Origin: a virus
Taxonomy: Duplodnaviria; Heunggongvirae; Uroviricota; Caudoviricetes
Direction: 5' to 3' (one strand)
IMG/VR virus record: IMGVR_UViG_2744054912_000002
DNA length: 51,139 nt
The translations under genes were made by a program, and so were the position numbers. Positions 3,841 through 46,122 of this stretch are shown piece by piece. The notes below the pieces were generated by a model. The model did no database searches. It had not been told where the DNA came from and worked only from the letters and a program-made list of their open reading frames with translations. How positions within the stretch are numbered: position 1 is the first letter of the stretch; each line of letters starts with the position of its first letter.

Positions 3841-5568
3841 TTACTCAGAGTCACCGGCATCAATCGTGTCGCCGCTTATGAAGTTAAGCCCGCCTTTTTT
3901 GGCCATTGTCAGCGTTACACGAGTGAAGTAATCAGCGCCGTTGCGTGGGTGCATATCGTTGATAGCCGAACCCCACAGCGTGGTACGGTTGACCAGCGCC
4001 GGAGTGGTCGGATGCTGGAACGGGATGGCCGGGACAGCATCACCAGTCACGAAGCCTGCTTTACCCGGATTTTCATCACGGACGTAGCACAGCACATCCA
4101 TCGAGCTGAACTGAATGTTCTCTGTCGTTAAGTTCTTACAAATACCAGCAGGTACTTCGTACACTTTCACGTTACCGAACAGGGTACCGATGTAGTGAAC
4201 ATACGGAGTCTGGATATAGTCTTCGGCTGGCTGGAAGAAATCCTTCGGCAACTGTTTGAAGAAAGATGCTGCATCAGCACCAGCAAACATCCCCATCGCA
4301 CCAGAAGATTTAACGCGCTCAATAATGTCGCGATATACAGTCTGGAATTTGCCACGAATGATGGTTGCCCATACATCAAAGGACTGGTTAACCGGCAGAG
4401 CGATGTCAAAGGTGTCGTTCGCAAGAGTACGCCAGATCATGATGCGAAGACGCAGCATATCCTGTTCATGAGACAGGTATTCCTTCAGGGTGCGGAACTG
4501 TAGGGAACCCAGGTCCAGACCAAATTCACGCTGTGCTTCATACGCCGCCTGTACCGTGTGCTCAGCCGCGATAACGAACTGGCTTGGGAACAGGGTGTAT
4601 TTCTTCATTTCGTGGTTGATCAGCGGGATCAGCTCAGGAGCGGCTTCAATATTGATTTCCGTCTCAATTGCGATCTCAGTGCCTTTATCCGGCGCTTTGG
4701 AGAACGACAGGGCAATCTGACCAATGTTGTAGTTCAGAGAGCAGGTAACAGTGATTTGCTCACCAGCAGCATTAGTAAACGAGTGAAGTAGGCTGCCGGA
4801 ACCGTTATCAACAACAGACTTAATACGGTTAACGTAGATATTAGTGCGACCTTTTCGGATTGGTACATTCTGGCCTTCGAAGTCTTCCATCTTGAAGGTT
4901 GCGGTTTTGCTGGTGCCATCGGAGCTTGCCACCAGCACATAGCGGCGGCGTAACTGGCTGTACACACCGACGGATTGCATGTCCAGAACATCACCAGCAG
5001 CATAAGAACCAAAAGAGGAACCTGCCACGTTAAAGACTTCATAGATGTCGGACTGGTCACGCGTAACCGGAATGAAGGTACACGCATCAGCGGTAGCTGC
5101 CCCCAACTGAACAGGCAGGATCATCGCGAGGAATAAAGGCAGACGCATAACACCGTCAGAAACGCTCATCATCTCTGCTGCGACGGATTCCAGCATCGCT
5201 TTATTAGTGGCATCCATGCTATTGCGGGTGGACTCAATCAGGCAGTTTTCCAGCGTCTGGTGGCAGGAGGCCAGAATTTCCGGACGCGGCATAGATTTAT
5301 GTGCTGCGGCGTAGTCAGCCAGTGCACTTGCCCACGCTGTAGCGATTTGAGCGGTGGCATTATCAGAGATACCCGCAAAAACCGGGTCTTTACGTGCAGC
5401 TTCAAGGATAGATGCGGCACGCGCGGCATCATCTTTAATAAATTGGTTATCAGTACCGAACTGCGCAGTGCTTGCCCAGCCAAGCACAGCTTTAGAGCGT
5501 TTTGCGATATCTGCAATACGATTCTGGTATTCGCGTAAGTTACTCAATTTACTCTTCCTTAAACACAA
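3841..5568 (-). CDS. Major head (capsid) protein, P1 gp23-like; 5' end uncertain (TTG start in ORF track, alternative TTG about 20 nt downstream after AAGGAAG)
   Basis: 575-aa ORF immediately adjacent to the partition site, as for gene 23 in P1-family genomes. Confidence 0.6.
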   Translation of the reverse strand: MCLRKSKLSNLREYQNRIADIAKRSKAVLGWASTAQFGTDNQFIKDDAARAASILEAARKDPVFAGISDNATAQIATAWASALADYAAAHKSMPRPEILASCHQTLENCLIESTRNSMDATNKAMLESVAAEMMSVSDGVMRLPLFLAMILPVQLGAATADACTFIPVTRDQSDIYEVFNVAGSSFGSYAAGDVLDMQSVGVYSQLRRRYVLVASSDGTSKTATFKMEDFEGQNVPIRKGRTNIYVNRIKSVVDNGSGSLLHSFTNAAGEQITVTCSLNYNIGQIALSFSKAPDKGTEIAIETEINIEAAPELIPLINHEMKKYTLFPSQFVIAAEHTVQAAYEAQREFGLDLGSLQFRTLKEYLSHEQDMLRLRIMIWRTLANDTFDIALPVNQSFDVWATIIRGKFQTVYRDIIERVKSSGAMGMFAGADAASFFKQLPKDFFQPAEDYIQTPYVHYIGTLFGNVKVYEVPAGICKNLTTENIQFSSMDVLCYVRDENPGKAGFVTGDAVPAIPFQHPTTPALVNRTTLWGSAINDMHPRNGADYFTRVTLTMAKKGGLNFISGDTIDAGDSE

Positions 5569-16000: not shown

Positions 16001-16307
16001 AGCTGCCGGAGAAGGAGATGTCATCTTTTGCGATCCGCCGTATGAACCGCTTCCAAATACAGAGGGATTCACGAACTATTCCGGTCATGACTTTAAGTTT
16101 GAAGAGCAAAAACGCCTGGTGTCTCTGTTGACGGATGCTCATCGTCGAGGTGCAAAGGTTCTCATTACTAACAGTGGCGCGCCAAACATCAGAGAGCTTT
16201 ATCATGACAGTGGCTTCAGAGTGGAACCTCTTTTTGCCAGACGTTCTGTGTCTTGTAAGGGGGACACTCGAGGTGTAGCTCATGACGTTTTGGGTGTATT
16301 GCTCTAA
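13020..16307 (+). CDS. dmt: DNA methyltransferase Dmt (N-terminal C5-cytosine MTase domain fused to C-terminal Dam-like N6-adenine MTase), interrupted in frame by an intein
   Basis: C5-MTase motifs: motif [10 protein letters not shown], motif IV GGTP|...|CQAFS, ENV (WENVPGVLS), motif [11 protein letters not shown]; Dam motifs [20 protein letters not shown]; 1095 aa, 754 aa after intein removal. Confidence 0.9.
13251..14273 (+). other. Intein (341 aa) with LAGLIDADG homing-endonuclease domain inserted at the catalytic Pro-Cys of the C5-MTase
   Basis: Starts Cys ([13 protein letters not shown], block A), block [21 protein letters not shown] motifs [11 protein letters not shown] and [12 protein letters not shown], terminal blocks [21 protein letters not shown] followed by +1 Cys of CQAFS. 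Confidence 0.85.
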
Positions 16308-16980: not shown

Positions 16981-17055
16981 GATGGTGTAGCTCAGCGGTT
17001 AGAGCGGTTGACTGTTAATCAACGGGTCGATGGTTAAATCCATCCACCATCGCCA
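16981..17055 (+). tRNA. tRNA-Asn (anticodon GUU), CCA encoded
   Basis: Hand-folded cloverleaf: acceptor GATGGTG/CACCATC, D-arm GCTC-AGCGGTTA-GAGC, anticodon loop CTGTTAA; T-loop appears to be 6 nt (TTAAAT) in my fold, so boundaries are approximate. Confidence 0.75.
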
Positions 17056-17057
17056 AT

Positions 17058-17133
17058 GCCGGTTTAGCTCAGTTGGTAGAGCGCCTGCCTTGTAAGCAGG
17101 ATGTCAGCGGTTCGAGTCCGTTAATCGGCACCA
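17058..17133 (+). tRNA. tRNA-Thr (anticodon UGU), CCA encoded
   Basis: Acceptor GCCGGTT/AATCGGC, D-arm GCTC-AGTTGGTA-GAGC, anticodon loop CTTGTAA, T-arm AGCGG-TTCGAGT-CCGTT; 2 nt after tRNA-Asn. Confidence 0.85.
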
Positions 17134-18564: not shown

Positions 18565-18640
18565 GGCCCTTTAGCTCAGTGGTTAGAGCTGGCGACTCAT
18601 AATCGCACGGTCACCGGTTCAAGTCCGGTAGGGGCCACCA
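18565..18640 (+). tRNA. tRNA with CAU anticodon (Ile2/lysidine-type or Met), CCA encoded
   Basis: Acceptor GGCCCTT/AGGGGCC, D-arm GCTC-AGTGGTTA-GAGC, anticodon loop CTCATAA, T-arm ACCGG-TTCAAGT-CCGGT. Confidence 0.8.
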
Positions 18641-32187: not shown

Positions 32188-35100
32188 CTATATTTTTCCG
32201 CCTACGCCTTTAAACTTCTCAATAAACGAGACGATTTTCTGGAAAACTGCCTGTTTTTTCGTTTTATATTGCGGATTTAACGGACTAAGTTTTGGTAATG
32301 TTTCGTTTAATTCTGTGCCATTTTCGGTGGCATATTCGCGTTTTAAAGACGTGCGAATATAGCGTTTTGCTGCATCTTCATTGAGATTTTCTTCTTTTAT
32401 CAATGCTTCTGCTTCACGTTGCTGTTCGCGTTGAGCAAACGTAAAGAATGCGTCAATGATGCTGGCTTTGTCCGGTAAATCATCCAGGTTCGTTTGCTGA
32501 ATAAAATCGACCACCAGGCCTTCTTTAGCACGGTTCCCCAGGCTTGAACGAATTAAGCGTTTGACCTCTTCGATCATTTCGCCCTTGCCTTTATTTTGTC
32601 TGTTGTGTTCGAAAATCAGTCCAAGGATATAATCCAGGTTTATTTCCTGAGACTTCAGCAAATCGACCTCAAAAACTACGTCATCCCAGTCAGTGGTTGA
32701 TTTCTCTTTTTTCTCAGCTTCTTTCTCACGGCGCTGCCAGTCGCGAATATCGTTATAGGCAGAACGATAATCCTGAATCTTGCGTTCAGCAGGGAGACGA
32801 ATTGTTTGCAATTCAGCGAACTTTTCATCATCCACATAATGTTCTGCTTTGAATTTTTCTACCGCAACAGGATCGCTAAGATCGATTTGTTGCAGGGCTT
32901 TTAGCGTGGCAAATTCATCATAGTTTTGCAGGATGTTCTCGGCACGCAGGTATTCGCCAAACAGTTTAACGAAGTCTTTCTTCTCTTTTTCACTTTCAAT
33001 ACTGGCAGGGTCAGGGAACCGTTGTTCCAGTTCTGAAACTACTGTCATGAAGCCGCGTTTAGCTTCACCAGTGGTAGCATCAGTAAAGCCTTCCATATAC
33101 TCTGCATAACTCTTTTCTAAAACCACATTTTTGGTATTTTTGTCACCAAACAGCGTTATGGCATCAATAGTTGAGCGTTCCAGATCCCGGAAAGTGACGA
33201 TATTACCGAAGGTTTTAGTTGCATCATAAATACGGTTGGTGCGGGAAAATGCCTGCATCAAGCCGTGAAAACGCAGGTTTTTATCGACGAATAGCGTGTT
33301 CAATGTTGGAGCATCGAAGCCGGTTAAAAACATCCCCACGACAATTAACAGATCGATATCCTGATTTTTAACCCGTTGGGCTAAATCACGATAGTAGTTC
33401 TGAAAACCGTTACTGTCGGTGCTGAAGTTAGTTTTAAAATAGCTGTTATACTCACGAATTGCAGCGTCAAGAAACTCTTTAGCACTGCTGTCCATTGCGC
33501 TGGTATCAAAAGTTTCATCGGAAATTTCACCAATGGCATTTTGTTCTTCATTGGCGGCAAAGGAGAAGATTGTCGCAACACGCAGCGATTTATAGGTGGC
33601 CGATTTATTAGCTGCTTCCTCTTGTAACCGTTTAAACGTCGCGTAATAGGCTTTCGCGGCATCCACGCTACTCACTGCCAGCATGGCATTAAAGCCTTTG
33701 GAACCTGGGAAAGTACGGTGGGTCTTCTGGCGGAAGTTATTCAGAATATATTGCGTAATTTCCTGTATACGCATGGGATGAAGAAACGCCTGCTGATTTT
33801 CAGCCGCACTCAGTTTTTTCTCGTCGGTTTCTGTCTCTAAAGACTTAAACTGTGGCCGCACATCGTTATAGTCCACCTTGAATTTGAGCACTTTTTCATC
33901 ACGAATCGCATCGGTAATAACATATGAATGCAATTCACGACCAAATACGCTGGCGGTCGTTTCTGAGCCTAAAGCGTTTTCCGGGAAAATAGGGGTGCCG
34001 GTAAAACCAAACTGATAATAGCGTTTGAATTTCTTCTTCAGGTTTTTCTGCGCTTCTCCAAACTGGCTGCGGTGGCATTCATCAAATATAAACACCACTT
34101 GCTGATTATATACAGGCAGGTCGCTTTCTGCTTTCATCAGGTTATTGAGTTTCTGAATAGTAGTGACGATAATTTTGTTATCGTCCTTATCCAGATTTCG
34201 TTTAAGGCCTGCGGTATTTTCCGAGCCGTTGACGCTGTCTGGCGAAAAACGCTGATATTCCTTCATGGTCTGGTAATCGAGGTCTTTCCTGTCGACCACA
34301 AAGAAGACTTTATCAATAAAGTCCAGCTCTGTTGCCAGACGCGCGGCTTTAAAGCTGGTGAGGGTTTTACCAGAACCGGTAGTATGCCAGATATACCCAC
34401 CGCTTTCCGGTTTTGACCAGTTCTTCGCTGTAAAGGAACTCTTAATTTTCCACAGAATGCGCTCGGTGGCGGCAATCTGGTACGGTCGCATCACCAGTAG
34501 CGTCTGACTACTGTCAAAAACGCTGTAGTTCACCAGAACATTCAGCAGAGTATGTTTCTGGAAAAAGGTAGCGGTAAAGTCTTTGAGGTCTTTAATCAGC
34601 GTGTTGTCTGATTTCGCCCAATTCATGGTGAAGTCAAAACTGTTTTTATCGCGCTTTGTCGTGTTGGCAAAATAACGGGTATCGGTGCCGTTAGAAATGA
34701 CAAACAGTTGCAGATACTTAAACAGGGAATTTTCGCTGTTAAAACTCTCTTTACTGTAACGATGTATCTGGTTGAAAGCCTCACGAATCGCCACCCCGCG
34801 TTTTTTTAGTTCGATTTGCACCAGCGGTAAACCATTAACCAGGATCGTGACGTCATAACGGTTAGCATGAGAACCCGTCTGTTCAAACTGCTGGATAATC
34901 TGCACCTTATTGCGCATGAGATTCTTTTTATCTATCAAATAGATGTTCTCAAGTCGCCCGTCGTCAAAAATAAAGTCGCAGATATAGTCGATATGGATTT
35001 TACGGGTTTTATCCAGAATACCATCGCTGGGGTTGTCCAGATACTGCTCCGTGAAGCGCCGCCACTCGCTGTCATTAAACATCACACCATTGAGGCTCTG

Positions 35101-40870: not shown

Positions 40871-42064
40871 GTGACCTGGGACGATCACAAGAAGAATTTT
40901 GCTCGCCTGGCGCGAGATGGTGGTTACACCATCGCACAGTATGCCGCCGAGTTTAATCTTAACCCTAATACCGCACGTCGTTATCTCCGTGCCTTCAAAG
41001 AAGACACCAGGACTGCGGACAGCCGCAAGCCAAATAAGCCAGTCAGGAAGCCACTAAAAAGCATGATCATTGATCACTCTAATGATCAACATGCAGGTGA
41101 TCATATTGCGGCTGAAATAGCGGAAAAACAGAGAGTTAATGCCGTTGTCAGTGCTGCAGTCGAGAATGCGAAGCGCCAAAATAAGCGCATAAATGATCGT
41201 TCAGATGATCATGACGTGATCACCCGCGCCCACCGGACCTTACGTGATCGCCTGGAACGCGACACCCTGGATGATGATGGTGAACGCTTTGAATTCGAAG
41301 CTGGCGATTACCTGATAGATAACGTTGAAGCGCGGAAGGCCGCGCGCGCTATGTTGCGTCGGTCCGGGGCCGATGTTCTGGAAACCACTCTTCTTGAAAA
41401 GTCTCTTTCTCACCTCCTTATGCTGGAGAACGCCAGGGATACGTGTATTCGCCTGGTGCAGGAAATGCGCGATCAGCAAAAAGGCGATGATGAAGGTACT
41501 CCGCCTGAATACCGTATCGCGAGCATGCTAAACAGCTGTTCCGCGCAGATAAGCAGCCTGATCAACACCATTTACAGCATCCGGAATAACTATCGAAAAG
41601 AAAGCCGGGAGGCGGAAAAGCACGCTTTGTCTATGGGGCAAGCTGGCATTGTTAAGCTGGCATACGAACGAAAGCGTGAAAATAACTGGTCAGTGCTGGA
41701 AGCTGCTGAATTCATCGAGGCGCATGGCGGGAAAGTGCCGCCCCTGATGCTGGAGCAAATCAAAGCCGATCTGCGTGCTCCTAAGACCAATACCGATGAT
41801 GAGGAAAGGCAAACAGCCGTCGGTGGCCCTTCTCTTGAAGATCTGGACAAAGTTGCGCGAGAACGGGCCGCCAACCGCCGCGCCGATGCCGCATTGTGGA
41901 TTGAGCAGCGTAGGGAAGAAATCGCCGATATCGTTGATACAGGCGGTTATGGAGATGTTGATACTGAAGGTGTATCAAACGACCCATGGCTGGAACAAGA
42001 CCTGGACGAAGACGAGGAGGAAGACGAAGAAGTTACCCGCAAGCTATACGGGGATGATGATTAA
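40871..42064 (+). CDS. pacA: Packaging endonuclease small subunit PacA
   Basis: 397 aa; contains the pac hexamer clusters within its 5' coding region. Confidence 0.85.
41062..41224. other. pac: pac packaging site: two clusters of TGATCA/GATC hexamers (4 + 3)
   Basis: GATC hexamers at about 41064, 41071, 41083, 41098 and 41193, 41205, 41217. Confidence 0.75.
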
Positions 42065-43548
42065 TGGCCAGAAGTTGCGTAACGGATCCACGTTGGCGCG
42101 AGCTGGTGGCGCTATATCGTTATGACTGGATTGCGGCCGCTGATGTTTTGTTCGGCAAAACACCTACCTGGCAGCAGGATCTGATTATTGAGTCTGTGCA
42201 GGAACAGGGTAGCAAGACATCTGTTTCGTCTGGTCACGGTACCGGGAAATCAGACATGACTTCTATCATGATCATGTTGTTCATAATCATGTATCCCGGT
42301 GCCCGCGCCATTATCGTTGCGAACAAAATTCAGCAGGTAATGACCGGTATATTCAAGTACATCAAGATAAACTGGGCTACTGCCACCAGCCGTTTTCCAT
42401 GGCTTGCTGATTATTTTGTTCTGACAGAAACCGCTTTCTATGAGGTTACTGGTAAAGGTGTATGGACTGTAGTACCGAAGGGCTTTCGTCTGGGAAGTGA
42501 AGAAGCTCTCGCCGGTGAACACGCAGACCATCTTCTGTATATTATCGATGAAGCCTCCGGTGTCAGTGATAGAGCTTTCGGTATCATCACCGGTGCTCTT
42601 ACCGGACAGGATAACCGCATCTTATTGCTGTCACAGCCTACACGCCCAAGCGGCTATTTCTACGATACACACCATAAACTGGCCAAGCGTCCTGGTAACC
42701 CAGATGGCGTTTATACGGCGATCACGCTTAACAGTGAGGAATCACCGCTGGTAACGCCAGAATTTATCAAAATGAAGCTGGCGGAGTACGGCGGGCGTGA
42801 TAACCCTATGTACATGATTAAGGTACGCGGCCTATTCCCTAAATCACAGGACGGCTTCCTTCTTGGACGTGATGAGGTTGAACGTGCGACGCGGCGGAAA
42901 GTCAAGATTGCCAAAGGATGGGGCTGGCTTGCATGTGTGGACGTTGCTGGTGGTACAGGACGGGATAAGTCCGTTATCAATATCATGATGGTGTCCGGCC
43001 AGCGAAATAAACGCCGTGTAATCAACTATCGAATGCTGGAATACACAGACGTTACAGAAACGCAGCTTGCCGCCAAAATTTTCGCAGAATGTAATCCTGA
43101 GCGATTCCCAAACATCACCATAGCGATAGACGGCGATGGGCTGGGTAAAGCAACGGCGGATCTGATGTACGAGTATTATGGTATTACCGTACAGCGCATA
43201 CGCTGGGGTAAAAAGATGCATAGCCGTGAAGATAAGAGCCTGTACTTTGATAAACGTGCTTATGCCAACGTTCAAGCCGCAGAGGCCGTAAAATCTGGTC
43301 GTATGAGACTGGATAAGGGTAATGAAACTATTGAGGAAGCGTCGAAAATCCCTGTAGGGATTAACTCCGCGGGTCAATGGAAAGTGATGAGTAAGGAGGA
43401 TATGAAGAAAAAACTCAACCTGCACTCACCAGACCATTGGGATACATATTGTTTCGCTATGCTGGCGGATTATGTTCCCCAGGATGAAGTGCTTAGCGTC
43501 GAAGACGAAGCGCAGGTTGATGAAGCTCTGGCATGGCTTAATGAATGA
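42064..43548 (+). CDS. pacB: Terminase large subunit PacB
   Basis: 494 aa; ATPase/nuclease terminase-like; ATGA overlap with pacA. Confidence 0.85.
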
Positions 43549-43550
43549 AT

Positions 43551-43567
43551 ACTTGCTCTAATAAATT
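43551..43567 (+). promoter_or_regulatory. C1 operator-like site after pacB
   Basis: ACTTGCTCTAATAAATT (one mismatch to consensus). Confidence 0.55.
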
Positions 43568-43700
43568 GTGTTTTTTAACTGCCGATGTTACATTGAGCCT
43601 GACCTCTTGCGCCTTGAGGCATTTTCGGTTTATGCTTATCAGGCACCTCAGTAAAACGGGTGCCGGGATTGAGACCCCGGATAATGCAAAAGGCGACACA

Positions 43701-43722
43701 GACGCCAAAAGCGTCTTTTTTT
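43701..43722 (+). terminator. Rho-independent terminator
   Basis: gacgc-caaaa-gcgtc followed by T7. Confidence 0.6.
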
Positions 43723-43744
43723 GTGTCATGCCATCGCACAGCCA

Positions 43745-43880
43745 TACGTAGCGTTTAGCTCAGAGATCAATGGTAGTGCTGGCTGGGCTGCCGAAAGGCA
43801 GGCCGGTTCCCTTTTGCGCCGGTAGTCTCAACCCAGTCAGTGCTACCGCCATTGAGATTGAGACCTCACGCGGTAGCTCC
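43745..43880 (+). ncRNA. Structured leader / candidate c4-like antisense regulatory RNA
   Basis: Long imperfect closing stem (43765-43782 with 43823-43844), GAAA-tetraloop hairpin (43788-43801), second hairpin (43803-43822) whose loop is complementary to the downstream RBS. Confidence 0.4.
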
Positions 43881-43907
43881 TTAAATTAGCAAAAGGAGGC
43901 TGCCATT

Positions 43908-44129
43908 GTGGCTACTATCCCTACCCCTGCTCATCCTGAATTTATCTGGCGCTTTTACTCCTGCCAAAAACGTCACTATCACTTCGTTATTGCACCGACA
44001 GAAGATGAGGCACGTTCTCAGCTTCCGGATGCTCCCTGTATTTTCTCTGCCCGCTTTTCTACCGATTCGCGCAATTCTCTCAGTTACTGGTGCCTCCCTG
44101 TTAACGCTTCTGCTCAGGAGGGACTATGA
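43908..44129 (+). CDS. Small protein translationally coupled to the antirepressor (icd-like, 73 aa)
   Basis: AAAGGAGG RBS; stop TGA overlaps the ATG of the next gene (ATGA); my hand count of the start codon was off by 1 nt, so I follow the ORF track. Confidence 0.5.
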   Translation: MATIPTPAHPEFIWRFYSCQKRHYHFVIAPTEDEARSQLPDAPCIFSARFSTDSRNSLSYWCLPVNASAQEGL

Positions 44130-45238
44130 GAACGTCATTAGTCACCCGTGAAGAGATGATCGAGGCAATTGAACAGCACACTGCCTGTATCAGTACCAGG
44201 GATATACCGGGCGTTATTGCCAACTACTTCATGATCACCAAACAACTTTACCGGAGAAAGGACAAACACGCGGTTCACCGCATTCTGCTAACCGATATCC
44301 GTGAATACCTGCTCGAACAGGGTCATCTGAATTACGCAACCGTCGCAGCCGAAGCACGCAAGGAGGCACACAGAATGAAAGCAACTAACGTTAAATCAGA
44401 AAAAATTTATGCACCTTCAGTTCAGGAATCGGAACTGGTGGTTGTTCAGAATCAGCCGGATGAAATTCCCGTTCTGGAATGGCAGGGAGTACGTGTCGTG
44501 ACAACCGAAACTCTTGCTAGAGGGTATGGTGTCGATGAAGCCAATATTCGCAACAATTTGTCTCGCAACCTTGACCGCTTTGAAGAAGGTAAGCATTACT
44601 TTCTTCTAACTGGTTTAAAATTAAGAGAATTTAAGAACAGAGTAACCGGAAGTTACTCTGTTGGTAAGAACGCCAGAAGCCTTACACTCTGGACAGAGCG
44701 CGGCGCTGCACGCATGTCTAAGATCGTGGACACAAATGAAGCATGGGCATTCTTTGAAAAACTGGAAGACAGCTACTTCCGGCAAAAAGAACAGCAACCG
44801 GTTGCAATCCCCCAGACGCTTCCAGAAGCTCTGCGCCTGGCTGCCGAACTGGCTGAACAAAAGCAGCTTCTGGAACAGAAAGCCCACCAGCTAAATCAGC
44901 AGCTGGTGGCCGCCGCTCCTAAAGTCGATTTTGCCGACCGGGTATCAGTAGCTAAAGGGATCCTGATTGGGAATTTTGCAAAGGTTGTTGGACTTAAGCA
45001 AAACGCGCTGTTTGCCTGGTTACGGGAGAACGGCATCCTGATAGCGTCCGGTGGACGTAAAAATGTGCCGTTCCAGCAGTACATCAATGCGGGGTATTTC
45101 ACGGTGAAAGAAGTGGTGCTGGATGATGAAGATGGCTACCAGATACGGTTGACGCCTCAATTAACGGGTAAAGGCCAGCAGTGGTTGACGCGTAAACTGC
45201 TCGATGCTGGCTTGTTAAAACCGGTGGCGGCTGAATAA
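44126..45238 (+). CDS. Antirepressor-like protein (ORF6N-like N-terminal domain plus KilA-C/AntA-like C-terminal domain)
   Basis: 370 aa; ...VRVVTTETLARGYGVDEANIRNNLSRNLDRFEEGKHYFLL... and C-terminal ...PFQQYINAGYFTVKEV... Confidence 0.7.
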   Translation: MRTSLVTREEMIEAIEQHTACISTRDIPGVIANYFMITKQLYRRKDKHAVHRILLTDIREYLLEQGHLNYATVAAEARKEAHRMKATNVKSEKIYAPSVQESELVVVQNQPDEIPVLEWQGVRVVTTETLARGYGVDEANIRNNLSRNLDRFEEGKHYFLLTGLKLREFKNRVTGSYSVGKNARSLTLWTERGAARMSKIVDTNEAWAFFEKLEDSYFRQKEQQPVAIPQTLPEALRLAAELAEQKQLLEQKAHQLNQQLVAAAPKVDFADRVSVAKGILIGNFAKVVGLKQNALFAWLRENGILIASGGRKNVPFQQYINAGYFTVKEVVLDDEDGYQIRLTPQLTGKGQQWLTRKLLDAGLLKPVAAE

Positions 45239-45270: not shown

Positions 45271-46122
45271 TTATTGCGCGCTTTCGGGGTTGTCGTTTAC
45301 TGGCTGCCCCTTCTTGGTTTTACGGCTGCGCGTAACTGATGCGCCTGACTTAACCTTTTTCTCTTCGCGAGTGATGGCAATTTGTTTTTTTACATTTTCA
45401 ATATCTGCCAGGCGATATATTTTTGCTTGCGGCCAGCGGTCGCAGATGATCGGTTCTATGGAGTCATAAAGGCTAAATTTTGCTTTTTCGAATTCACCGT
45501 TGATGATAATTCCATCACGGAGAGTTTCATCGCAGATAAACACGCCACACAGTGGCACATGGTAACTAACTGATTTACCATCATTGTAGTTAGGGCTACT
45601 GGAAATGTAGTGGACGCGCAGCATTGTTTCGCTAAAGCCGTGTACGCGCATACGGAATTTTTCATCCTCCGGGTACTGCCTCATTAGCTCTTTTGTTGCT
45701 TCCAGGTTCTCTATGTATTTCGCACTGTGCTCATTGAGCCCCGCGCTTTTTTGGATGCGAATGTCCTTATCAATCAGATGAATAATGCGGCCAGCGGTCA
45801 TGTTGACGCTGTTCACAGCTTCTGTCTGATAAGTTGTAACCTTACGTACACCGCGAAGGATGTTAGGCACTGGATATAAAATAGTCTTTGGGATATTGAG
45901 GTCTGGGTACTGTTCCAGTTCCCGCGCCATTAAAGTCCATTTATCAATTTCAGCCTGAATGCTGTCAGTTTCTTTGAACGGTAGAACGACAACCGGGCGT
46001 ACAGGACGACCGTCGCTGGCTGTATCAACGTGTTGGGCGCGTGCAACAGCTTTTTTTAGAAAGAGATCCCTGAAGCTGACGAACTCCTGGTACAGTTGTT
46101 CGCCGTAGACATAATTTATCAT
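45271..46122 (-). CDS. c1: Primary lysogeny repressor C1
   Basis: 283 aa, matching P1 C1 length; preceded by coi, with operator-like sites upstream. Confidence 0.9.
   Translation of the reverse strand: MINYVYGEQLYQEFVSFRDLFLKKAVARAQHVDTASDGRPVRPVVVLPFKETDSIQAEIDKWTLMARELEQYPDLNIPKTILYPVPNILRGVRKVTTYQTEAVNSVNMTAGRIIHLIDKDIRIQKSAGLNEHSAKYIENLEATKELMRQYPEDEKFRMRVHGFSETMLRVHYISSSPNYNDGKSVSYHVPLCGVFICDETLRDGIIINGEFEKAKFSLYDSIEPIICDRWPQAKIYRLADIENVKKQIAITREEKKVKSGASVTRSRKTKKGQPVNDNPESAQ

What the first reader, a model, noticed from the sequence alone, without database searches (positions are those of the whole stretch)
43797..43903. Leader hairpin loop is complementary to the Shine-Dalgarno region of the small ORF
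Nucleotides 43804-43817 (ggttcccttttgc, 3' side and loop of the second leader hairpin) can pair antiparallel with 43888-43901 (gcaaaaggaggctg), which contains the AAAGGAGG RBS of the 73-codon ORF. By my hand pairing, 12 of 14 positions are Watson-Crick or G-U with a single mismatch. A second block, ggcag 43797-43801, matches ctgcc 43899-43903. This is the architecture expected for a c4-type antisense RNA or a cis-acting RBS-sequestering structure.
Basis: seen in the sequence. Interest (0 to 1): 0.6.

Follow-up and report, generated by a model that had tools for sequence, protein, structure and literature searches.

The report
C4 antisense RNA immunity switch

Summary
It is the b'/b2 contact of a C4 antisense RNA (Rfam RF01695, 75 bits against a gathering score of 45, 43766-43853). 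It sits in an immI-type module of a P1-like phage-plasmid, inserted between pacB and c1.

The module runs in this order:
- a C1 operator-like site
- an a1b1/IsrK-like element with a terminator (43643-43723)
- the C4 RNA, with b' CCTTTTGC in the hairpin-2 loop and a' GTCTCAA single-stranded
- a2 (43858) and b2 (43889, overlapping the SD AAGGAGG)
- icd (73 aa, 81% identical to P1 Icd)
- ant1/ant2

Its second block (GGCAG/CTGCC) is not supported.

On a single sequence the duplex energy is unremarkable (z = -2). The evidence that it is not chance:
- The composite a-b motif occurs three times here, against 0.01 expected.
- In 9 specificity types every cognate a'/a2 and b'/b2 pair is fully complementary. 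Only 1 of 362,880 permutations reaches that total.
- Six of the 12 differences from phage RCS47 are coordinated changes in b1, b' and b2.

Verdict: already known, low interest.

By-products:
- Relatives carry two C4 modules with different a/b alleles.
- The Gifsy-1 IsrK/orf45 system maps onto the same a1/a' pairing.

The parts
43552..43568 (+). C1 repressor operator-like site (counterpart of P1 Oc4/Op51), 4 nt after the pacB stop codon
   Evidence: CTTGCTCTAATAAATTG has 2 mismatches to the 17-bp operator sequence ATTGCTCTAATAAATTT used as the search consensus. The annotated P1 Oc4 itself reads AATGCTCTAATAAATTT. The site sits where the annotated Oc4 sits in P1.
43607..43636 (+). Putative sigma-70 promoter (-35 TTGCGC, 18-nt spacer, -10 TATGCT), counterpart of P1 P1c4/P51b. 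Inferred only.
   Evidence: The -10 hexamer lies 6 nt before the first base of the a1b1/IsrK-like element, as TATAGT does in P1. The same spacing is seen in phiP27, the Stx2 phage and D6. The consensus scan did not call it.
43643..43723 (+). a1b1 / IsrK-like RNA element: a 5' hairpin, a hairpin presenting a1 in its loop, single-stranded b1, and a terminator-like hairpin followed by a U run
   Evidence: Rfam isrK RF01394, 58.2 bits against a gathering score of 50. It also gives a weak c4-a1b1 RF03163 match. The same three-hairpin fold appears in 11 relatives with differing stems. The P1 and P7 a1b1 regions match both Rfam models.
43669..43675 (+). a1 (TTGAGAC), upstream copy of the a target
   Evidence: Exact complement of a'
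43686..43693 (+). b1 (GCAAAAGG), upstream copy of the b target
   Evidence: Exact complement of b'
43700..43723 (+). Intrinsic-terminator-like hairpin AGACGC-CAAAA-GCGTCT plus a T run, between a1b1 and the C4 RNA
   Evidence: Terminator scan hit. It is the 3' hairpin of the isrK model. It is conserved through changed stems in relatives.
43766..43853 (+). C4 antisense RNA gene (Rfam match). The predicted mature RNA is about 43772-43849 (78 nt), by alignment to the annotated 77-nt P1 C4.
   Evidence: RF01695, 75 bits, E = 1.4e-14, full-length model match. The fold is a 17-bp closing stem plus two hairpins, -46.6 kcal/mol. In 11 homologues, 27 consensus pairs are predicted and 13 of them have compensatory double changes. 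The ends come from the P1 annotation and the alignment.
43810..43817 (+). b' (CCTTTTGC) in the 12-nt loop of hairpin 2.
   Evidence: The cost of keeping it unpaired is 0.97 kcal/mol. It is complementary to b1 and b2.
43825..43831 (+). a' (GTCTCAA) in the single-stranded joint between hairpin 2 and the closing stem
   Evidence: The cost of keeping it unpaired is 0.01 kcal/mol. It is complementary to a1 and a2.
43858..43864 (+). a2 (TTGAGAC), downstream target, presented between the short arms GAG and CTC
   Evidence: Opening cost 1.33 kcal/mol.
43870..43877 (+). GCGGTAGC, complementary to the 3' strand of the C4 closing stem (43842-43849). In the MFE fold it instead forms the 5' arm of a local hairpin that covers the SD. 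Its role is unexplained.
43889..43896 (+). b2 (GCAAAAGG), downstream target overlapping the SD
   Evidence: The SD AAGGAGG is 43893-43899. Opening cost 6.35 kcal/mol.
43908..44129 (+). icd (73 aa, GTG start), host cell-division inhibitor and first cistron of the operon
   Evidence: 52 of 64 residues (81%) identical to P1 Icd. NCBIfam NF033153 phage_ICD_like, 49.8 bits. tblastn hits to icd of P1, P7, D6 and RCS47.
44126..45238 (+). ant1 antirepressor (370 aa). Its ATG overlaps the icd stop codon (ATGA). An in-frame Ant2-like start lies at ATG 44376, behind AAGGAGG.
   Evidence: 57% identical to P1 Ant1, and about 90% over the C-terminal 140 aa. Pfam ORF6N and KilAC/ANT domains. The internal start is read from the sequence and matches the P1 ant2 annotation.

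Best explanation
Positions 43552-45238 are an immI-type immunity module of a P1-like phage-plasmid.

Proposed mechanism:
1. A transcript that starts upstream of a1b1 and reads through the a1b1 terminator contains the C4 RNA, then its own targets, then icd and ant.
2. The C4 RNA folds into a tRNA-like shape: a 17-bp closing stem and two hairpins. RNase P and a 3' trimming step cut it out as a stable RNA of about 78 nt.
3. Two pre-exposed segments pair with the icd-ant mRNA. The single-stranded a' (GUCUCAA) pairs with a2, and b' (CCUUUUGC), in the hairpin-2 loop, pairs with b2.
4. The b'/b2 duplex covers half of the SD of icd (AAGG of AAGGAGG), so icd is not translated.
5. ant1 starts inside the icd stop codon (ATGA) and depends on icd translation. 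The untranslated RNA is also open to premature termination. The Ant1/Ant2 antirepressor is therefore not made, and the C1 repressor stays active.
6. Because the RNA diffuses, it also silences ant on an incoming phage that carries the same a/b alleles. The a/b sequences thus set immunity specificity.

Shown here: the RNA family membership, the fold, the exposure of a' and b', the four complementary sites, their co-variation, and the icd-ant context.

Inferred from P1/P7 work: processing, action in trans, polarity on ant, and the immunity phenotype.
For: - Family match: Rfam C4 hit at 75 bits against a gathering score of 45.
- Fold: the structure is kept in 11 homologues. Of 27 pairs, 13 have compensatory double changes.
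- Exposure: a' and b' cost 0.01 and 0.97 kcal/mol to keep unpaired.
- Target sites: a1, b1, a2 and b2 are exact complements. The composite motif occurs 3 times against 0.01 expected.
- P1 layout: the P1 GenBank record annotates the same arrangement, namely Oc4, two promoters, a1, b1, the 77-nt C4, a2, b2 ('repression of icd ant translation'), icd, ant1 and ant2.
- Co-variation across types: nine specificity types were compared (window/D6, RCS47, P1, P7, APSE-7, an Stx2 phage, phiP27, Kp4865-1, 673R5). Each has 7/7 a'-a2 and 8/8 b'-b2 pairs with its own target and fewer with any other. Only the identity permutation of 362,880 reaches the cognate total.
- Co-variation against RCS47: the window differs from RCS47 at 12 of 291 positions. 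Six of these are the matched two-base change in b1, b' and b2 (P = 1e-4).
- Allele reassortment: among modules at least 92% identical, two a alleles and two b alleles occur in all four combinations, always with matching targets.
- Gene context: icd and ant homology.
- Literature: c4 RNA acts in trans to block Ant synthesis (PMC8546580). It binds around the RBS of the target (PMC12197685). It is an RNase P substrate (PMC2190699).
Against: - Nothing here was measured. No transcript ends, processing or repression data exist for this element.
- The predicted duplexes are short and A/U-rich. The values are b -9.5 and a -7.6 kcal/mol, with b2 costing 6.35 kcal/mol to open. The single-sequence energy is not significant.
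- A terminator-like hairpin lies between the promoter region and the C4 RNA. C4 expression therefore depends on read-through or on an unrecognised promoter.
- The promoters are weak matches that the scan did not call.
- The relative contributions of cis pairing in the precursor and trans pairing by the mature RNA cannot be told from sequence.
Confidence: 0.9

Rival explanations
1. A purely cis-acting leader. The region is never released as an RNA. The loop, or the local hairpin 43871-43904, sequesters the SD of icd only within the same transcript, like an attenuator or thermosensor.
For: - The C4 RNA and its target lie on one transcript.
- The MFE fold of 43740-43920 pairs GGUAGCUCCUU (43871-43881) with AAGGAGGCUGCC (43893-43904), which covers the SD. 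Its z-score is -5.7, most of which comes from the C4 fold itself.
- In Gifsy-1 an inactive cis conformation of the homologous transcript was shown with compensatory mutations (PMC4825925; mapping).
Against: - The local SD hairpin is not conserved in P1, phiP27, the Stx2 phage or Kp4865-1.
- The element has every mark of the trans-acting, RNase P-processed P1/P7 C4 RNA.
- Duplicate targets upstream, reassorting a/b alleles and two modules with different alleles in one plasmid make sense for a diffusible specificity determinant. They make no sense for a cis hairpin.
- c4 is reported to act in trans (PMC8546580).
Confidence: 0.07
2. The functional product is a small protein. The 39-codon ORF 43770-43889 (the 'ash family protein' or orf45-like ORF) overlies the hairpins, and the complementarity is incidental.
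For: - The ORF matches Pfam PF10554 Phage_ASH at 29.1 bits against a cut-off of 26.
- PGAP annotates the ORF in relatives.
- A tagged ORF45 was detected in Gifsy-1 (PMC4825925).
Against: - Substitutions follow base-pairing rules: 13 pairs have double compensatory changes.
- The corresponding frame in P1 contains a stop codon.
- The Gifsy-1 orf45 product gets no Pfam or NCBIfam hit.
- A review notes that the orf45 nucleotide sequence is conserved while its amino-acid sequence varies (PMC12197685).
- A small protein would not explain a1/b1/a2/b2 co-variation.
Confidence: 0.02
3. Chance complementarity between a G+C-rich hairpin loop and a purine-rich SD.
For: The energy of this one duplex is matched by 81 of 2000 shuffles. 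Any CCUU-containing loop will match an AAGG SD.
Against: The composite motif occurs 3 times against 0.01 expected. The variable half of b' and all of a' co-vary perfectly in 9 types.
Confidence: 0.01

Closest known systems
immI operon of phages P1 and P7 (Oc4, P51a/b, a1 b1, c4 RNA, a2 b2, icd, ant1/ant2)
   Same: - The order of all parts is the same.
- The RNA has the same fold.
- a' is single-stranded and b' lies in the hairpin-2 loop.
- b2 lies at the icd RBS.
- Icd is 81% identical and Ant1 57% identical.
- A C1 operator-like site lies upstream.

   Different: - Different a/b alleles: GTCTCAA/CCTTTTGC here, CTGTCAA/TCACTAAC in P1 and CTGCTAA/TCACAATC in P7.
- Here b2 covers AAGG of a strong AAGGAGG SD.
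- The module sits between pacB and c1 rather than next to sim/kilA-repL.
- The closest relative carries it as a second copy alongside a canonical immI that has yet another b allele.
- The middle domain of Ant is replaced by an ORF6N domain.
- icd starts with GTG.
IsrK - orf45/STnc1160 - anrP locus of Salmonella prophage Gifsy-1
   Same: - The upstream element here scores above threshold on the isrK model.
- Gifsy-1 has a C4 homologue (69 bits) directly after isrK and before an antirepressor-like gene.
- The helix proven there by compensatory mutations, G28-C162 and G31-C159, is a1 pairing with a'.
   Different: - The Gifsy-1 paper describes the RNA as an Hfq-binding activator of an ORF and does not mention c4.
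- Gifsy-1 has no icd, and its b2 lies at the anrP SD.
- Whether the a1b1 element here is made as a separate short RNA is unknown.
C4/IsrK pairs annotated in Stx2 phages, phiP27 and APSE phages
   Same: They share the same two-RNA unit in front of an antirepressor- or BRO-type gene, with their own matching a and b sequences. This has already been noted for APSE (bioRxiv 10.1101/2020.03.17.996009).
   Different: The downstream genes differ (Rha/BRO/KilA-type, no icd). These are lambdoid or podovirus backgrounds without C1.
sar antisense RNA of phage P22 and the CI RNA of satellite P4 (from my own knowledge, and PMC12197685 for sar)
   Same: These are small phage RNAs that keep an antirepressor or lytic operon silent. 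The P4 CI RNA is also cut out of the leader of the operon it controls and has targets on both sides.
   Different: sar is a true cis-encoded overlapping antisense transcript. P4 CI acts through transcription termination. Neither was compared here by sequence.

Membership tests
C4 antisense RNA (Rfam RF01695; P1/P7 c4) | Sequence-plus-structure match to the family covariance model above its gathering score | tested here: met
   75 bits against 45, E = 1.4e-14, model positions 1-87 of 87, at 43766-43853 on the + strand
C4 antisense RNA (Rfam RF01695; P1/P7 c4) | A long closing stem that encloses two hairpins, kept by compensatory changes | tested here: met
   The MFE fold shows it. RNAalifold on 11 homologues gives 27 pairs, 13 with changes on both sides, and no broken pairs apart from gap columns.
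C4 antisense RNA (Rfam RF01695; P1/P7 c4) | Exposed a' (single-stranded) and b' (hairpin-2 loop) complementary to a2 and b2 downstream on the same strand, with b2 at the RBS of the first ORF | tested here: met
   7/7 and 8/8 Watson-Crick pairs. b2 43889-43896 overlaps the SD 43893-43899. Opening costs are 0.01 and 0.97 kcal/mol. The contacts co-vary in 9 types.
C4 antisense RNA (Rfam RF01695; P1/P7 c4) | A second copy of the targets (a1, b1) upstream of the RNA gene | tested here: met
   a1 at 43669 and b1 at 43686. Weak RF03163 match and an above-threshold isrK match.
C4 antisense RNA (Rfam RF01695; P1/P7 c4) | Controls an antirepressor operon (icd-ant in P1-like phages) and lies behind a C1 operator | tested here: met
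   icd and ant homologues follow directly. An operator-like site lies at 43552-43568.
C4 antisense RNA (Rfam RF01695; P1/P7 c4) | Matured from the operon transcript by RNase P to about 77 nt | not testable with these tools
   Only the tRNA-like closing stem and the CCA after it (43849-43851) can be seen. Processing is known for P1/P7 (PMC2190699).
C4 antisense RNA (Rfam RF01695; P1/P7 c4) | Represses icd/ant in trans and sets immunity specificity | not testable with these tools
   Inferred from P1/P7 (PMC8546580, PMC12197685). Allele reassortment and a second module with different a/b alleles in one plasmid are consistent with it.
isrK Hfq-binding RNA (Rfam RF01394) / c4-a1b1 (RF03163) | Match above the gathering score: two 5' hairpins plus a terminator hairpin and a U run | tested here: met
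   isrK scores 58.2 against 50 at 43643-43721. The terminator scan gives a hit. c4-a1b1 scores only 22.3 against 46.7. The P1 and P7 a1b1 regions hit both models.
isrK Hfq-binding RNA (Rfam RF01394) / c4-a1b1 (RF03163) | Made as a separate short RNA that binds Hfq and activates the downstream antirepressor-like gene | not testable with these tools
   Shown only for Gifsy-1 (PMC4825925)
cis-acting RBS-sequestering leader | A conserved intramolecular helix that covers the SD | tested here: inconclusive
   A local hairpin 43871-43904 is predicted. Its sequence is not kept in P1, phiP27, the Stx2 phage or Kp4865-1.

The most novel reading that the evidence does not exclude
The upstream a1b1 element (43643-43723) may not be a passive duplicate. 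It could be a separately terminated IsrK-type small RNA that binds a' and b' of the C4 RNA, acting as an anti-antisense decoy or folding partner. The module would then be a three-RNA switch: decoy, antisense RNA and target.

On this reading the Gifsy-1 IsrK/orf45(STnc1160)/anrP system, published without reference to c4, is the same machine. The a and b alleles would form a reassorting two-part immunity code that lets one phage-plasmid carry two C4 modules with different alleles.
Probability: 0.35. Interest if true: 0.55.

Novelty: already known. Interest (0 to 1): 0.18.

Why it matters
The finding is ordinary. The c4 antisense RNA of P1/P7 has been understood since about 1990, has an Rfam family, and is annotated in P1. 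This copy is identical or nearly identical in hundreds of sequenced plasmids.

It has three practical uses:
- The a/b alleles could serve as a simple sequence-based immunity type for P1-like phage-plasmids, many of which carry resistance genes.
- Annotation pipelines call a doubtful 'ash family protein' over this RNA gene.
- The mapping of the IsrK mutations onto a1/a' suggests that two bodies of literature describe one system. It also gives a testable role for the a1/b1 sites, which the P1 record still labels only as 'putative' targets.

Tried and rejected
- **Single-sequence thermodynamics as a significance test.** The loop/target duplex energy is only z = -2.0. The cofold of the mature RNA with its target gains nothing over the two monomers (-66.2 against -65.7 kcal/mol), and it picks a different helix. 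I therefore rested the case on motif statistics and co-variation.
Both cost about as much to open as they return.
- **A formal pair count on one MAFFT alignment of the whole a1-to-b2 region (A1).** The a and b sites were put out of register for P1 and P7. I replaced it with in-register extraction and a permutation test.
- **A third conserved complementarity.** The 3' strand of the C4 stem is complementary to 43870-43877. It is conserved but barely specific: a permutation reached the cognate total in 1033 of 20,000 trials. It is left unexplained.
- **Minus-strand ORFs over the region, and the D6 orf84 product.** They gave no NCBIfam hits.
- **The 39-aa and 45-aa ORFs against NCBIfam.** No hits.
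- **The original P1 papers** (PMC41593, PMC523184, PMC312442, PMC196329). They are not held. Statements about RNase P processing, Rho-dependent polarity and translational coupling in P1 therefore rest on secondary citations and on my own knowledge.
- **A simple sponge model for a1b1.** It does not explain why a1 mutations in cis raise anrP expression in Gifsy-1 (PMC4825925, Table 1). I offer it only as the novel case.

Full report
**What the region is.** The window is a P1-like phage-plasmid. pacA (40871-42064) and pacB (42064-43548) precede the finding, and c1 (45271-46122, minus strand) follows it. The closest records are phages JL22 (98.8%) and RCS47 (95%), and E. coli H8 plasmid A, which is 100% identical over 291 nt.

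An Rfam scan places a C4 antisense RNA (RF01695) at 43766-43853 on the plus strand. It scores 75 bits against a gathering score of 45 and matches the whole model. An isrK match (RF01394, 58.2 bits against 50) lies at 43643-43721.

The 73-codon ORF is icd. It is 81% identical to P1 Icd and matches NF033153. The next ORF (44126-45238) is an Ant1 homologue: 57% identical overall, with ORF6N and KilAC domains. Its ATG overlaps the icd stop codon, and it has an internal Ant2-like start at 44376.

**Check of the observation.**
- The pairing is as described. There are 8 Watson-Crick pairs between 43810-43817 (CCTTTTGC) and 43889-43896 (GCAAAAGG). A C/A mismatch follows, then four more pairs, three of which are G.U.
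- The target overlaps the SD AAGGAGG (43893-43899), which lies 8 nt before the GTG at 43908.
- Only the 8-nt core is in the loop. Keeping it unpaired costs 0.97 kcal/mol. The extension costs 8.15 kcal/mol to open and adds only about 4 kcal/mol of duplex energy.
- The second block fails. ctgcc is at 43900-43904 and re-uses bases of block 1. GGCAG is the 3' arm of hairpin 1, with an opening cost of 7.95 against a duplex of -6.8 kcal/mol.

**Is it more than chance?** Energy alone does not show it: z = -2.0, and 81 of 2000 shuffles do as well. The architecture does.
- The RNA has a second exposed segment, a' GTCTCAA (43825-43831, opening cost 0.01 kcal/mol).
- Exact complements of a' and b' occur in the same order twice. 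Upstream are a1 (43669) and b1 (43686). Downstream are a2 (43858) and b2 (43889).
- The pattern TTGAGAC-N(5-35)-GCAAAAGG occurs three times in the 51 kb, only at these places and on the complement of the RNA. The expected number is 0.01.

**Comparison with P1 and relatives.** The P1 record annotates exactly this layout: Oc4, P2c4 and P1c4, a1, b1, the 77-nt C4, a2, b2 ('repression of icd ant translation'), icd, ant1 and ant2. P1 uses TTGACAG/GTTAGTGA and P7 uses TTAGCAG/GATTGTGA, each with a matching a' and b'.

I extracted the six sites in register from nine specificity types: window/D6, RCS47, P1, P7, APSE-7, Stx2 phage F039, phiP27, Klebsiella phage Kp4865-1 and 673R5.
- Every RNA pairs 7/7 and 8/8 with its own a2 and b2, and less well with every other target.
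- Of all 362,880 reassignments, only the true one reaches the cognate total.
- RCS47 is the sharpest case. It differs from the window at 12 of 291 positions. Six of these are the same two-base change made in b1, b' and b2 (P = 1e-4).
- Among modules at least 92% identical in other plasmids, two a alleles and two b alleles occur in all four combinations, always with matching targets.
- The RNA fold itself is kept. There are 27 consensus pairs, and 13 of them have changes on both sides.

**How it most likely works.** By homology with P1/P7, the RNA is cut out of the operon transcript by RNase P (PMC2190699). It then acts in trans to block Ant synthesis (PMC8546580) by pairing around the ribosome-binding site (PMC12197685).

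Here b'/b2 covers the AAGG of the icd SD. ant1 is coupled to icd through the ATGA overlap. With the antirepressor silent, C1 stays active. The a/b alleles then decide which incoming phages are also silenced.

A C1 operator-like site (43552-43568, 2 mismatches to the operator sequence used as the search consensus) and weak promoter candidates lie where P1 has Oc4 and P51a/b. The promoter candidates are inferred, not called by the scan. Processing, trans action and polarity are inferences for this element.

**The upstream element.** The a1b1 region folds as a 5' hairpin, a hairpin with a1 in its loop, single-stranded b1, and a terminator-like hairpin with a U run. All eleven relatives examined share this shape with different stem sequences. 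The P1 and P7 a1b1 regions match both the c4-a1b1 and the isrK models, so the two Rfam families describe one element. The C4 RNA lies downstream of this terminator, so its expression needs read-through.

**Context.** The pacB-c1 position of an ant gene has been noted before (PMC6906374). C4 and icd homologues, in two copies, have been noted in D6-like plasmids (PMC6799933).

In E. coli H8 plasmid A the module co-exists with a canonical immI next to kilA. That copy has a' CTGCTAA and b' TCGTAAGT, with b2 ACTTACGA. One plasmid therefore carries two C4 systems with different a/b alleles. The canonical site lies just outside this window.

**Rivals.**
- A purely cis-acting leader is possible for the unprocessed transcript, and a local SD hairpin is predicted. 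That hairpin is not conserved, and the family is known to act in trans.
- A small-protein reading exists: a 39-codon ORF with a Pfam Phage_ASH hit at 29.1 bits, annotated as 'ash family protein' in relatives. It does not fit the RNA-type substitution pattern or the stop codon in the P1 frame.
- Chance is excluded.

**Verdict.** The system is already known, this copy is common in databases (424 plasmid records), and it scores low.

The one lead worth keeping concerns Gifsy-1. There isrK is followed by a C4 homologue (69 bits). The compensatory mutant pairs of the IsrK paper (G28-C162 and G31-C159) fall exactly on a1 and a' (PMC4825925). This gives the so far only 'putative' a1/b1 sites an experimentally supported partner.

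Noticed in passing
L013 (Gifsy-1, NC_010392) 34040-34316, minus strand; counterpart of window 43643-43905: In Gifsy-1, isrK is followed directly by a C4 RNA homologue (RF01695, 69 bits) and then by anrP.
- With IsrK +1 set at 34316, all 12 numbered bases in PMC4825925 fit the sequence.
- G28 and G31 lie in a1, and C159 and C162 lie in a'. The proven helix b-I is therefore a1 pairing with a'.
- The 'orf45' AUG107 is the conserved AUGG at the 5' end of the C4 RNA.
- STnc1160 matches the C4 homologue in position and approximate size.
The paper does not mention P1 or c4, and I found no held paper that makes the link.
   Followed up: partly
window 43770-43889 (+): A 39-codon ORF laid over the C4 RNA gene matches Pfam PF10554 Phage_ASH (29.1 bits, cut-off 26). 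Related plasmids annotate it as 'ash family protein'. This is probably a protein model built partly on translations of an RNA gene.
   Followed up: partly
L011 (E. coli H8 plasmid A, NZ_CP010173) 4372-4625; L012 3001-3291: The closest relative carries two C4-icd-ant modules. One is the copy seen here, between pacB and c1. The other is a canonical copy next to kilA, with a' CTGCTAA (the P7 allele) and a b allele not seen in P1 or P7 (b' TCGTAAGT, b2 ACTTACGA, b1 ACTTACGC).
   Followed up: partly
L014-L020, L001, L002 (plasmid and phage copies of the same module): Two a alleles (GTCTCAA, GTTCCAA) and two b alleles (CCTTTTGC, CCTTTGAC) occur in all four combinations among modules at least 92% identical. 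a1/a2 and b1/b2 always match the RNA. This suggests reassortment of a two-part specificity code.
   Followed up: partly
window 43842-43849 versus 43870-43877: The 3' strand of the C4 closing stem (GCTACCGC) is complementary to GCGGTAGC, which lies between a2 and b2. A similar match exists in most relatives examined (7-9 nt in APSE-7, the Stx2 phage, phiP27, Kp4865-1, 673R5 and Gifsy-1; absent or displaced in P1, P7 and the H8 canonical copy), but it is barely specific (permutation about 0.05). In the MFE fold the same segment instead closes a hairpin over the icd SD. It may be an alternative structure of the unprocessed transcript.
   Followed up: partly
window 43908: icd starts with GTG here, but with ATG in RCS47 and D6. 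This is one of the 12 differences from RCS47.
   Followed up: no
window 16981-17130 and 18565-18637 (+): Three tRNA genes, as in the tRNA region of P1-like phages.
   Followed up: no
window 11753, 16298, 16309(-), 26155(-), 29780, 29829(-), 31921, 40246, 46217(-), 46681(-), 46764, 48325, 48802: There are further matches (0-3 mismatches) to the 17-bp C1 operator consensus across the window. They include a facing pair at 16298/16309 and sites around c1/coi.
   Followed up: no
L010 (phage GER2) 2223-2306: An sRNA-Xcc1 (RF02221) match of 79.6 bits lies about 0.8 kb downstream of the C4 RNA in an Stx-type phage.
   Followed up: no
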